Position numbers: made by a program. A stretch of DNA of 64,000 nucleotides from Escherichia coli (lineage in GTDB: Bacteria; Pseudomonadota; Gammaproteobacteria; Enterobacterales; Enterobacteriaceae), in assembly GCF_016026235.1 (NCBI RefSeq), contig NZ_CP065613.1. One strand, given 5' to 3'. Numbering within the stretch: position 1 is the stretch's first letter; each line of letters opens with the position of its first letter. Positions 6,501-9,500 of this stretch are shown here, one piece after another.

Positions 6501-9500
6501 TTTACTACCGTGGGATGTGTTCCGCAAAGACAGCTCGGTGCGCTCACGCGTTGAAAAAAGCGAAGCCAACGCGCAAGCCACCAATGCGGTTATTCCACCG
6601 GCCAGAATGCCTGATAACTGATTTAGCGATCAGTTTCGGTGATCCACAGCTGGCCGCCTTCCATCCACGCCAACCACTGACCATCCGGCGAGAAGACCAC
6701 GGCGTCCGCAGAAGGTGGATTGGCGTGGTTTTCGGTTAAATACTCAACCTCGCCGCTTTGCGCATGGGCACAAGCAATTCGATTATCCAGCACAAAGCCC
6801 AACCATTCTCCTGACGGATGCCAGTTAAATACAGACTGAATATCCGTTTTGTTATGGGTTAACTGGCGCGGCTCGCCGCCCTGTGGCGAGATAAGCCACA
6901 GTTGCACAATGCCGTTATCATCACGCATTAAAAACGCGATTTGCGTACCCTGCGGATTACAGCGCACCCAGTGGCGCGGGACGTTGACTAACCCCGGATA
7001 AGCCCGATGGTGGGTAAAGGTTAAACGTCGCTGCACGACGCCACGCGGTGGCGCGGGCAGGGTGGTTTCCGTTCCACTTAACGGCGCATCACCTGCCGCT
7101 TTCCAGCCCGCTTCATCTTGCGGCAACTCAACGATAAACAGCTCCGGCACTTTCTCACCCTTTGGCGAAAGTGTGTCGCCAATAAACGCCAGCGCGTGAT
7201 TTCCTACCCATCCTTCTTCATAAGCACGATTGATTTCATCACTGCCAGGCTGCGGCGTGGGCGTGGTTTTACTCACCAGCACACACCAGTGGCTGCCGCT
7301 GTATTCACGCGGATGCTGCTTTTGTACGTTGACCGGACCAAACGGCGCAGCAACACCGACGTTTCGCAAATCCAGCGCCGGATCGAGTTCATGCATTACA
7401 TGGTCGTTATAGGTAAAGCTCACCCTTTCACCGTTCGGGCTAAAGACATGCACATGGCTGCCGCCGCGCAGCGCTCCTGGCGTATACGGCGCGGTAATAT
7501 CCATTGCATCGAGATTGCTCACCTTGCCGCCTTCAGCAATGACTCCGCGCCGATGATGGAAGTCGTAATGCCATGTTTCATCAGGATTTTCCGGGCCGTG
7601 AATAAAGACATATTTCTCTGACTTCGGATGAACGGTCACCACGCCGACGTGTGCGCCCTGTGACGCACAGTAGATAACCTCGACCTCACCGGTATGGATA
7701 TTCACACGCTCAATGGTCTCGCCGGTAAACGACGCCCCAGAAGGACGCACGTCAAATACCAGCCACTGGCTGTCGGGCGTCCAGGTATTGGTATTGGTGA
7801 GCAGATGATTACGGGGAGCAAAGGTTATCTGTTTCATGGCGCGGTCCTGATACAAAACGGGTCCAGCCATCATACTTCACAAGGACTTCACTTTCAGACA
7901 ATAGTCTTTTGCCATCGTGATGAATGTGAGTGAAAAGATGGAACATTTCGACGTGGCGATTATTGGCCTCGGCCCGGCAGGGTCGGCGTTGGCACGAAAG
8001 TTAGCCGGCAAAATGCAGGTGATCGCGCTGGATAAAAAGCACCAGCATGGTACTGAAGGTTTCAGCAAACCTTGTGGCGGTCTGCTGGCACCGGACGCGC
8101 AGCGATCTTTTATTCGCGATGGGCTGACGCTTCCTGTCGATGTGATCGCTAATCCGCAGATTTTCAGCGTCAAAACCGTCGACGTCGCCGCATCGCTCAC
8201 GCGTAACTACCAGCGAAGCTATATCAATATTAATCGCCATGCTTTCGACTTGTGGATGAAATCGCTGATCCCCGCCAGCGTTGAGGTTTATCACGACAGC
8301 CTGTGTCGAAAAATCTGGCGTGAGGATGATAAATGGCATGTCATTTTTCGTGCAGACGGTTGGGAGCAGCATATTACCGCCCGCTATCTGGTCGGTGCCG
8401 ATGGTGCCAACTCGATGGTGCGGCGACATCTCTACCCGGATCATCAAATCCGTAAATATGTCGCAATCCAGCAGTGGTTCGCAGAGAAACATCCGGTGCC
8501 GTTCTACTCCTGCATCTTTGATAATGCGATAACTGACTGTTACTCATGGAGTATCAGCAAAGACGGTTATTTTATCTTTGGCGGTGCCTATCCAATGAAA
8601 GACGGTCAGACGCGTTTCGCGACGCTGAAAGAGAAAATGAGCGCCTTTCAGTTCCAGTTTGGTAAGGCGGTGAAAAGCGAAAAATGCACGGTGCTGTTTC
8701 CCTCACGCTGGCAGGATTTTGTCTGCGGTAAGGACAACGCCTTTCTGATTGGTGAAGCGGCGGGATTTATCAGCGCCAGTTCGCTGGAGGGGATTAGCTA
8801 TGCGCTGGATAGCGCAGAGATTCTGCGTTCGGTGTTACTGAAGCAGCCGGAGAAGAGCAACGCCGCCTACTGGCGCGCCACCCGCAAACTGCGTTTAAAA
8901 CTCTTCGGTAAGATAGTAAAAAGCCGATGCCTGACCGCACCGGCTTTAAGAAAGTGGATTATGCGCAGTGGTGTGGCACATATTCCACAGTTGAAGGATT
9001 AGCCAACGCGCTTCACATCGCCCACCAGCAGGATATAAGAGAGCGCGCCAATCAACGCGACGGCGGAGATATAAACCAGTGCAGGTGCGAAACCGTAACC
9101 CTGCGCCAGGTACCCCACCACCAGCGGAACGGTGATGCCGCCCAGACCACCGGCGAAGTTAAATACGCCGCCGGTTAAACCAATCAGGCGCATCGGTGCC
9201 AGAGAAGAAACCAGCGACCAGGTAATCGAAGCAAAACCGTTACCGAAGAATGCCAGCGCCATCAGGCACATAATCATCATCGGATCGTTAGTGTAGTTAG
9301 CGCCCATAATGCAGGTGGAGATCAGCAAGCCGCAGATAATCGGCGTTTTACGCGCAAAGCCCAGTGAAAAGCCCTTACGTACCAGCAGATCCGCTACCCA
9401 GCCAGAGAGCAGGACGCCGACAAACGCCGCGAGGAATGGCACCGTGGTCATAAAGCCTGCTTTCAGCGCCGTGATTCCTTTTTCCTGGGTTAAATAGTTC

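What the first reader, a model, noticed from the sequence alone, without database searches (positions are those of the whole stretch)
7876..7891. Perfect CreB cre-tag upstream of cbrA
TTCACaaggacTTCAC matches the TTCAC-N6-TTCAC direct repeat bound by CreB and lies about 50 bp upstream of cbrA, a known CreBC regulon member. It sits only 3 bp beyond the longest possible yidR start, which argues that yidR really starts further downstream (for example at 7837).
Basis: partly seen in the sequence, partly recalled or inferred. Interest (0 to 1): 0.3.

Follow-up and report, generated by a model that had tools for sequence, protein, structure and literature searches.

The report
Known CreB binding site before cbrA
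The repeat is a real, strongly conserved docking site for the E. coli response regulator CreB in front of the colicin-M-resistance gene cbrA; the CreB-cbrA link is already in the literature, so it is correct but ordinary.

Summary
TTCACAAGGACTTCAC sits at 7876-7891 (+), 46 nt before the cbrA ATG (7938) and 2 nt beyond the longest yidR ORF start (7873). The window holds only two perfect TTCAC-N6-TTCAC sites (0.13 expected). The other (36004-36019) lies 47 nt before cbrB, the second CreB-regulated locus here.

Forty cbrA loci from ten genera keep the site at a near-fixed distance from cbrA, including loci where yidR is not the neighbour. The conserved motif is ACTTCAC-N4-ACTTCAC, followed by exactly 10 nt and an invariant TAnnnT (window TAGTCT, 7902-7907). 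This is a pho-box-like layout for an OmpR/PhoB-family activator. CreB has Response_reg and Trans_reg_C domains.

The ATG at 7837 (MKQITF...) is conserved in every orthologue with a readable start. The 12-codon extension is closed by stop codons in about two thirds of them. RefSeq PGAP records start yidR at 7837, but the K-12 reference record keeps a 415-aa form starting at window 7870.

This is the published cre tag of a gene named for CreB regulation: already known, low interest. One speculative extra: the tag fills the spacer of a predicted divergent yidR promoter.

The parts
7876..7891 (+). cre tag TTCACAAGGACTTCAC (TTCAC-N6-TTCAC). The conserved unit is two 7-bp repeats ACTTCAC at 7874-7880 and 7885-7891, with a 4-bp spacer at 7881-7884.
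   Evidence: Searches give the sequence and the count against shuffles. Searches show the half-sites invariant in 39 distinct orthologous cbrA promoters while the spacer varies. One search shows the 45-nt core identical in 5184 of 5406 E. coli genomes.
7902..7907 (+). Inferred -10 hexamer of the cbrA promoter, TAGTCT (TAnnnT), exactly 10 nt downstream of the tag. There is no usable -35.
   Evidence: both T positions are invariant and the A is present in 38 of 39 distinct promoters (the exception is L019, TGCAGT). The spacing to the tag is ungapped in every tag-bearing locus. The simple scan picked the overlapping AATAGT at 7900-7905. No TSS data were obtained, so this is an inference.
7914..7914 (+). 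Predicted cbrA transcription start (an A, 7 nt after the -10), giving a 24-nt leader.
   Evidence: Inferred from the -10 position only. The leader has no significant structure (z = -1.19). Not mapped.
7938..9002 (+). cbrA coding sequence (354 aa, FAD-dependent oxidoreductase; RefSeq name 'colicin M resistance lipid reductase CbrA').
   Evidence: annotation; Pfam FAD_binding_3 and DAO.
6623..7837 (-). yidR coding sequence with the supported start at 7837 (404 aa, DUF3748 beta-propeller). A Shine-Dalgarno AGGA lies at 7848-7845, 7 nt before the ATG.
   Evidence: MKQ(I/L/V)TF start conserved in all 30 readable orthologues; the extension is closed by stops in most genera. (PGAP start). (DUF3748). 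(SD sequence).
7838..7873 (-). A 12-codon 'extension' of the longest yidR ORF (MMAGPVLYQDRA). Most likely untranslated leader and promoter DNA, not coding sequence.
   Evidence: the extension varies at 4 of 12 residues within Escherichia and is closed in most other genera; the K-12 reference record nevertheless starts yidR at the second ATG (window 7870); one strain has lost the first ATG (CAT to AAT).
7869..7897 (-). Predicted divergent yidR promoter: -35 CTGAAA (7897-7892), 17-nt spacer, -10 TATGAT (7874-7869). The cre tag fills the spacer, and the 'longest start' CAT at 7871-7873 lies inside the -10.
   Evidence: consensus scan, 9/12. ATCATAC and TTTCAG are constant in Escherichia, Citrobacter and Pseudocitrobacter, including Citrobacter where this DNA is outside any ORF. 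Hypothesis only.
36004..36019 (+). Second perfect cre tag, TTCACACTCCCTTCAC, 4 nt after the yieH stop. It is followed by 10 nt, then TAAATT (36030-36035), and lies 47 nt before the cbrB ATG (36067). cbrC follows at 36589-37176.

Best explanation
The repeat is the CreB operator of the cbrA promoter. When the sensor kinase CreC phosphorylates CreB, a head-to-tail CreB dimer is expected to bind the two ACTTCAC repeats, which are spaced 11 bp apart (7874-7880 and 7885-7891).

The site sits where a -35 hexamer would be, 10 nt upstream of a conserved TAnnnT -10 (TAGTCT, 7902-7907). Bound CreB would therefore recruit sigma-70 RNA polymerase in the way PhoB does at pho boxes. Transcription would start near 7914 and run into cbrA (ATG 7938). 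The same layout drives cbrB-cbrC from the second tag at 36004.

yidR, on the other strand, starts at 7837, so the tag lies in a 100-bp intergenic region and not next to a start codon.

Shown here: the motif, its rarity, its position, its conservation together with cbrA, the fixed tag-to-(-10) spacing, the domain family of CreB, and the conserved yidR start. Taken from the literature: CreB binds the tag, and CreBC activates cbrA. Inferred: the exact -10, the TSS, and the contact with sigma-70.
For: Motif and rarity: (2 perfect sites against 0.13 expected). Both sites lie 46-47 nt upstream of the two cbr loci in the window.

Annotation: cbrA starts at 7938 and yidR at 7837 in PGAP records.

Phylogenetic footprint: a perfect or one-mismatch tag starts 55-64 nt before the cbrA ATG in 39 of 40 tag-bearing loci. 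These come from Escherichia, Citrobacter, Pseudocitrobacter, Buttiauxella, Enterobacter, Phytobacter, Superficieibacter, Kosakonia, Leminorella and Intestinirhabdus. The fortieth, Intestinirhabdus L021, has it at -194. The N6 spacer differs between lineages while the half-sites stay fixed. In the 22-sequence alignment (mean column identity 44%) the invariant non-coding columns fall within the tag and two T positions of the TAnnnT.

The position table from 39 distinct promoters gives ACTTCAC-N4-ACTTCAC-N10-TAnnnT.

The tag is present in eight loci where yidR is not the neighbour (L023-26, L028-30, L032), so it tracks cbrA.

Within E. coli, the 45-nt core is identical in 5184 of 5406 complete genomes. 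For comparison, the surrounding 1 kb is 99% or more identical to this window in only 6 genomes.

CreB is an OmpR/PhoB-type regulator with Response_reg and Trans_reg_C domains.

Literature: the cre/blr tag TTCACN6TTCAC is described as critical for binding of activated CreB/BlrA (PMC4689548). The cre tag was defined by genome-wide analysis and CreB binds it in vitro (PMC3962086). CreBC positively controls cbrA, and creD, cbrA, cbrB and cbrC are co-induced (PMC3599342). The pho box is two 7-bp repeats plus a 4-bp spacer read as two 11-bp units, and PhoB contacts sigma (PMC4447250). [quoted passage not shown]
Against: No binding or expression data were generated here. The primary papers (Avison 2001, Cariss 2008, Helbig 2012) are not in the held library, so the statement that this exact site was published rests on secondary sources and on memory.

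No TSS data could be retrieved, so the -10 and TSS are inferred from conservation alone.

The creD tag of K-12 does not show a TAnnnT 10 nt downstream; its TAGTCT lies 22 nt downstream. The pho-box-like geometry may therefore not hold for every cre promoter.

About nine perfect tags are expected by chance in a 4.6-Mb genome (my extrapolation), so the motif alone is weak evidence.

One cbrA locus next to yidR (L042) has only a degenerate site, and Gilliamella cbrA homologues have none.
Confidence: 0.9

Rival explanations
1. The tag is a chance occurrence with no regulatory role.
For: One-mismatch matches are at chance level in the window (6 against 4.3). Extrapolating to a whole genome predicts several perfect sites by chance.
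Against: The half-sites are invariant in 39 distinct orthologous promoters from ten genera, while the flanks and the spacer diverge. Both perfect sites in the window share the same position and strand relative to cbrA and cbrB. The 45-nt core is identical in 96% of matching E. coli genomes.
Confidence: 0.02
2. The first repeat (TTCACA) is simply the -35 hexamer of an ordinary constitutive sigma-70 promoter (TTCACA-18-AATAGT), and no activator is needed.
For: The consensus scan scores TTCACA(7876)-18-AATAGT(7905) at 9/12. TTCACA matches TTGACA at 5 of 6 positions.
Against: The second repeat would then lie in the spacer and should drift, yet it is as invariant as the first. The conserved -10 is TAnnnT at 7902-7907, which puts TTCACA 20 nt away, too far for sigma-70. 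The 18-nt alternative hexamer is not conserved in other genera. cbrA is strongly inducible together with creD (PMC3599342), not constitutive.
Confidence: 0.04
3. The site mainly controls yidR. CreB bound in the spacer of a divergent yidR promoter represses or activates yidR, and cbrA is secondary.
For: A promoter-like site on the - strand (CTGAAA-17-TATGAT, 7897-7869) has the tag as its spacer. Its hexamers are constant in Escherichia, Citrobacter and Pseudocitrobacter.
Against: The tag is kept at cbrA in eight loci that lack an adjacent yidR. In genera where yidR is adjacent but 67-69 nt from the tag, the TATGAT is absent. yidR does not appear among the genes listed as changed by colicin M, whereas cbrA rises about 20-fold (log2 4.3; PMC3599342). 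This fits better as an additional effect (see the novel case) than as the main role.
Confidence: 0.04

Closest known systems
cre tag (cre/blr tag) of the E. coli Cre regulon, the CreB/BlrA binding site TTCAC-N6-TTCAC (Avison et al. 2001; Cariss et al. 2008), as found at creD
   Same: The consensus matches perfectly, it is a direct repeat, and it lies just upstream of a gene reported to be CreBC-activated (cbrA; by my recollection the name stands for CreB-regulated). The K-12 creD tag TTCACCGTCACTTCAC also carries the extended ACTTCAC-N4-ACTTCAC form.
   Different: Nothing essential differs: this is very probably the published site itself. At creD the nearest TAnnnT is not 10 nt downstream, so the promoter geometry at cbrA and cbrB may differ from that at creD.
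Pho box of PhoB-dependent promoters (two 7-bp repeats CTGTCAT plus a 4-bp spacer, replacing the -35)
   Same: Same 7+4+7 layout with 11-bp periodicity, placed immediately upstream of the -10 with no usable -35, and a regulator of the same OmpR/PhoB winged-helix family (PMC4447250, PMC4971064).
   Different: Different half-site sequence (ACTTCAC against CTGTCAT), different regulator and different signal. Contact of CreB with sigma-70 region 4 has not been shown here.
cbrB-cbrC promoter tag in the same window (36004-36019)
   Same: A perfect tag, a 10-nt gap, TAnnnT (TAAATT), and 47 nt to the ATG: the same architecture as cbrA.
   Different: It begins 4 nt after the stop of the upstream gene yieH rather than in a divergent intergenic region. 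Only CTTCAC, not ACTTCAC, is shared by its two repeats.

Membership tests
cre tag / CreB operator of a Cre-regulon promoter | Direct repeat TTCAC-N6-TTCAC | tested here: met
   Perfect match at 7876-7891.
cre tag / CreB operator of a Cre-regulon promoter | Promoter-proximal position, on the coding strand, upstream of a CreBC-controlled gene | tested here: met
   The tag ends 46 nt before the cbrA ATG, inside the 100-bp yidR-cbrA intergenic region. cbrA is described as positively controlled by CreBC (PMC3599342).
cre tag / CreB operator of a Cre-regulon promoter | Selective constraint on the half-sites in orthologous promoters | tested here: met
   The half-sites are invariant or nearly so in 39 distinct promoters from ten genera while the spacer varies.
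cre tag / CreB operator of a Cre-regulon promoter | CreB binds the DNA, and expression depends on creBC | not testable with these tools
   Literature only (PMC3962086, PMC4689548, PMC3599342). The primary papers are not held.
cre tag / CreB operator of a Cre-regulon promoter | The cognate creBC genes are present in the same genome | tested here: inconclusive
   creABCD is present in E. coli K-12. The window is E. coli chromosome but does not include the cre locus. Co-occurrence in the other genera was not tested.
PhoB-type (pho-box-like) activator-dependent sigma-70 promoter | Two 7-bp direct repeats separated by 4 bp (11-bp register) | tested here: met
   ACTTCAC-N4-ACTTCAC from the position table.
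PhoB-type (pho-box-like) activator-dependent sigma-70 promoter | The box abuts the -10 and takes the place of the -35 | tested here: inconclusive
   An invariant TAnnnT lies exactly 10 nt after the tag in all tag-bearing loci but one. The hexamer is inferred and no TSS is mapped.
PhoB-type (pho-box-like) activator-dependent sigma-70 promoter | The regulator belongs to the OmpR/PhoB winged-helix family | tested here: met
   K-12 CreB has Response_reg (1.9e-27) and Trans_reg_C (4.1e-24) domains.
PhoB-type (pho-box-like) activator-dependent sigma-70 promoter | The activator contacts sigma-70 region 4 to recruit RNA polymerase | not testable with these tools
   By analogy only.
yidR coding sequence start | Start codon and N-terminus conserved among orthologues | tested here: met
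   Met for 7837: MKQ(I/L/V)TF with ATG in all 30 readable orthologues, and AGGA 7 nt upstream. Not met for 7873/7870: the extension is open with ATG starts only in Escherichia and Pseudocitrobacter.

The most novel reading that the evidence does not exclude
In Escherichia, Citrobacter and Pseudocitrobacter, the cre tag is also the 17-nt spacer of a divergent yidR promoter (-35 CTGAAA 7897-7892, -10 TATGAT 7874-7869) that physically overlaps the cbrA promoter. If so, CreB~P binding would work as a two-way switch. It would recruit polymerase to cbrA while excluding it from yidR, linking envelope and colicin defence (cbrA) inversely to a sugar-acid catabolism gene (yidR). The evidence does not exclude this: the hexamers are conserved where the geometry applies, and the apparent 'longest start codon' of yidR would then be part of its own -10.
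Probability: 0.15. Interest if true: 0.3.

Novelty: already known. Interest (0 to 1): 0.08.

Why it matters
The finding adds little new biology. The cre tag consensus and CreBC control of cbrA are in the literature, and the gene is named for that regulation.

Three modest points come out of the check:
- Cross-genus conservation gives independent support that the site is functional, and refines it to ACTTCAC-N4-ACTTCAC placed 10 nt from a TAnnnT -10. This pho-box-like geometry could improve genome scans for Cre-regulon members, because the bare 10-specified-base motif is expected about nine times per genome by chance.
- The curated K-12 reference record still carries a yidR start 11 codons upstream of the start that comparative data and PGAP support.
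- The overlapping divergent promoter idea is a cheap, testable hypothesis.

Tried and rejected
Primary literature: Avison 2001 (JBC), Cariss 2008 (J Bacteriol) and Helbig 2012 (J Bacteriol) are not in the held library. I could not confirm from the source that this exact site was listed or footprinted.

Experimental TSS data: the Cappable-seq GTF is truncated long before 3.87 Mb. The supplements of Kim et al. 2012 contain no cbrA or yidR entry.

DgoR control of yidR (suggested by its co-expression with dgo genes, PMC5293155): DgoR-like operators TTGTA(G/C)TACAA (consensus recalled from memory) cluster only at 13787-13861, with none in the yidR-cbrA intergenic region. Rejected for this window.

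A structured leader or riboswitch in the cbrA 5' UTR: the fold is not better than shuffles (z = -1.19). Rejected.

The repeat finder on 7780-7960 returned nothing, because the 7-bp repeat is below its 8-nt minimum.

Generalising the tag-N10-TAnnnT geometry to creD failed: no TAnnnT lies 10 nt after the K-12 creD tag.

I checked whether yidE carries the internal stop annotated in the closest genome. It is intact in the window (561-aa ORF).
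Full report
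**Observation.** The window reads ...gccatcatac TTCACaaggacTTCAC tttcagacaatagtc... with the repeat at 7876-7891 on the + strand. A both-strand scan for TTCAC-N6-TTCAC finds two perfect sites in 64 kb, at 7876 and 36004. Dinucleotide-preserving shuffles give a mean of 0.13, and 2 of 100 shuffles reach two sites. With one mismatch allowed, the count (6) equals the chance expectation (4.3). Only the perfect sites are informative, and the motif by itself is not strong evidence: extrapolating to a 4.6-Mb genome predicts roughly nine chance sites.

**Context.** The window is E. coli chromosome. A 1-kb piece around the site matches 5420 of 5426 complete E. coli genomes, at 99.9% to strain FDAARGOS_943 and 97.3% to MG1655.

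RefSeq PGAP annotation places yidR (DUF3748 protein) at window 6623-7837 (-) and cbrA ('colicin M resistance lipid reductase CbrA') at 7938-9002 (+). The tag therefore lies in a 100-bp divergent intergenic region. It ends 46 nt before the cbrA ATG and begins 38 nt beyond the yidR ATG.

The second perfect tag lies 4 nt after the yieH stop and 47 nt before the ATG of cbrB (36067), which is followed by cbrC. Both perfect tags in the window thus sit in the same place relative to the two cbr loci it contains.

**Conservation.** A scan of one genome per species with the CbrA protein returned 56 loci.
- 40 cbrA loci carry a perfect or one-mismatch tag on the coding strand. They come from Escherichia, Citrobacter, Pseudocitrobacter, Buttiauxella, Enterobacter, Phytobacter, Superficieibacter, Kosakonia, Leminorella and Intestinirhabdus.
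- In 39 of them the tag starts 55-64 nt before the cbrA ATG. In Intestinirhabdus (L021) extra sequence separates the promoter from the ATG and the tag is at -194.
- The N6 differs between lineages (AAGGAC, AAGCAC, ACAGAG, GCTGAC, CCGTAA, GGTCTC and others) while the half-sites stay fixed.
- In a 22-sequence alignment with 44% mean column identity, the invariant non-coding columns lie in the tag and at two T positions of a downstream TAnnnT.
- Eight tag-bearing loci have no yidR next to cbrA, so the tag belongs to cbrA, not to yidR.
- No tag is found at Gilliamella, an Oscillospiraceae MAG or distant alphaproteobacterial homologues. One enterobacterial locus (L042) has only a degenerate site.
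- Within E. coli, the 45 nt from 7866 to 7910 are identical in 5184 of 5406 matching genomes. For comparison, only 6 genomes match this window at 99% or more over the surrounding 1 kb.

**Anatomy.** A position table from 39 distinct promoters shows that the conserved unit is longer than the textbook tag. It is ACTTCAC, 4 variable nt, ACTTCAC, exactly 10 nt, then TAnnnT. Both T positions are invariant and the A is present in 38 of 39.

In the window these elements are at 7874-7880, 7885-7891 and TAGTCT at 7902-7907. The tag-to-hexamer spacing is ungapped in every tag-bearing locus. cbrB shows the same arrangement: tag, 10 nt, TAAATT.

No sensible -35 exists. TTCACA is 20 nt from the conserved hexamer, and the simple scan's alternative (TTCACA-18-AATAGT) is not conserved elsewhere.

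I infer a TSS near 7914 and a 24-nt unstructured leader. No TSS data could be retrieved.

**Mechanism.** CreB from K-12 has Response_reg and Trans_reg_C domains, which makes it an OmpR/PhoB-family winged-helix regulator.

The 7+4+7 direct repeat with an 11-bp register, placed against the -10 in place of a -35, is the layout described for PhoB. PMC4447250 describes the pho box as two 7-bp repeats with a 4-bp spacer, read as two 11-bp units, with PhoB contacting sigma. [quoted passage not shown]

The most likely mechanism is therefore that a head-to-tail dimer of phosphorylated CreB binds 7874-7891 and recruits sigma-70 RNA polymerase to the cbrA promoter.

The literature supplies the steps I cannot test:
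- The cre/blr tag TTCACN6TTCAC is described as critical for binding of activated CreB/BlrA (PMC4689548).
- The tag was defined by genome-wide analysis and CreB binds it in vitro (PMC3962086).
- CreBC positively controls cbrA, and creD, cbrA, cbrB and cbrC are induced together by colicin M (PMC3599342).

One caveat applies. The K-12 creD tag (TTCACCGTCACTTCAC, inside the 3' end of creC) has no TAnnnT 10 nt downstream; a TAGTCT lies 22 nt downstream. The geometry may therefore be specific to the cbr promoters.

**yidR start.** I translated the yidR frame upstream of the conserved body in 31 loci; one (L012) has an unreadable N-terminus and is set aside. The ATG of MKQ(I/L/V)TF (window 7837) is present in all 30 others.

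The 12-codon extension MMAGPVLYQDRA is open with ATG starts only in Escherichia and Pseudocitrobacter. In 20 of the other 22 loci (Citrobacter, Kosakonia, Enterobacter, Buttiauxella, Phytobacter, Intestinirhabdus and others) a stop closes the frame 1-11 codons upstream. Fifteen of these have no ATG/GTG/TTG in between and five have a single TTG. Two Citrobacter loci (L010, L017) have a long open frame with only distant alternative start codons.

Within Escherichia the extension varies at 4 of 12 residues, while the whole protein is 92-97% identical.

AGGA sits 7 nt before the 7837 ATG, and the underlying GTCCTG is kept in Citrobacter and Pseudocitrobacter. PGAP records use 7837. The curated K-12 record NC_000913.3 annotates a 415-aa YidR starting at the window equivalent of 7870.

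The K-12 reference start is probably 11 codons too long.

**A speculative extra.** On the - strand the scan finds CTGAAA (7897-7892), a 17-nt spacer and TATGAT (7874-7869). The spacer is the cre tag, and the CAT of the 'longest start' lies inside the TATGAT.

ATCATAC and TTTCAG are constant in Escherichia, Citrobacter and Pseudocitrobacter, including Citrobacter where this DNA is outside any ORF. A TSS near 7862 would leave the long-form ATGs off the mRNA. If this promoter is real, CreB binding and polymerase recruitment to cbrA would exclude yidR transcription.

The evidence is thin. Genera with yidR 67-69 nt from the tag lack the TATGAT. yidR is absent from the colicin-M-responsive gene lists, which neither supports nor excludes mild repression.

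**Comparison and verdict.** The site meets every sequence-level criterion of a cre tag at a Cre-regulon promoter. Binding and creBC dependence rest on the literature.

From memory, not verified here because the paper is not held: Avison et al. 2001 found this tag upstream of yidS by genome search and renamed the gene cbrA for 'CreB-regulated'.

The finding is correct, and it is already known. What this check adds is a refined motif and geometry, cross-genus support, and a note on the yidR start in the K-12 reference.

Noticed in passing
window 36004-36019 (with 36030-36035 and 36067): The only other perfect cre tag in the window lies 4 nt after the yieH stop and 47 nt before cbrB. It has the same tag-10 nt-TAnnnT (TAAATT) layout as cbrA, and cbrC follows at 36589.
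   Followed up: partly
window 7838-7873 (-); NC_000913.3 3869274-3869309: The curated K-12 MG1655 record annotates yidR as 415 aa starting at the window equivalent of 7870. PGAP records and comparative data support 404 aa from 7837, so the reference start looks 11 codons too long.
   Followed up: yes
L062 (NZ_CM142673.1, strain UID2309220031), equivalent of window 7881: This strain has a 1-nt deletion in the tag spacer (TTCAC-AGGAC-TTCAC, N5). That would break the 11-bp register and might abolish CreB control of cbrA. It could also be an assembly error.
   Followed up: no
L061 (NZ_CP160125.1), equivalent of window 7871: CATCAT is changed to CATAAT. This removes the first ATG of the long yidR ORF and turns the predicted - strand -10 from TATGAT into TATTAT.
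   Followed up: no
L059 6102-6117 (K-12 creC 3' end / creD promoter): The creD tag TTCACCGTCACTTCAC also has the ACTTCAC-N4-ACTTCAC form. The hexamer TAGTCT, identical to the inferred cbrA -10, lies 22 nt rather than 10 nt downstream, about one helical turn further.
   Followed up: no
L021 2300-2500 (Intestinirhabdus alba): The tag and TAnnnT are intact, but about 130 extra nt separate the promoter from the cbrA ATG. This is either a long leader or an insertion.
   Followed up: no
L016, L019-L021 (Buttiauxella, Enterobacter ENT03, Phytobacter massiliensis, Intestinirhabdus), about 25-35 nt upstream of the tag: A conserved (A)GTAGTACAGCA block resembles the DgoR operator core GTAGTAC. yidR is reported to be co-expressed with dgo genes (PMC5293155). 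E. coli has no such block in this intergenic region.
   Followed up: partly
window 13787-13861: A cluster of four TTGTA(G/C)TACAA-like palindromes with 0-2 mismatches, presumably the DgoR operators at the dgoR promoter.
   Followed up: no
L042 2380-2500 (Enterobacteriaceae MGYG-HGUT-00110): cbrA lies next to yidR but has only a degenerate tag (ACTGCATACTTTTATCAT) and a longer, AT-rich upstream region. This may be a lineage that has lost CreB control.
   Followed up: no
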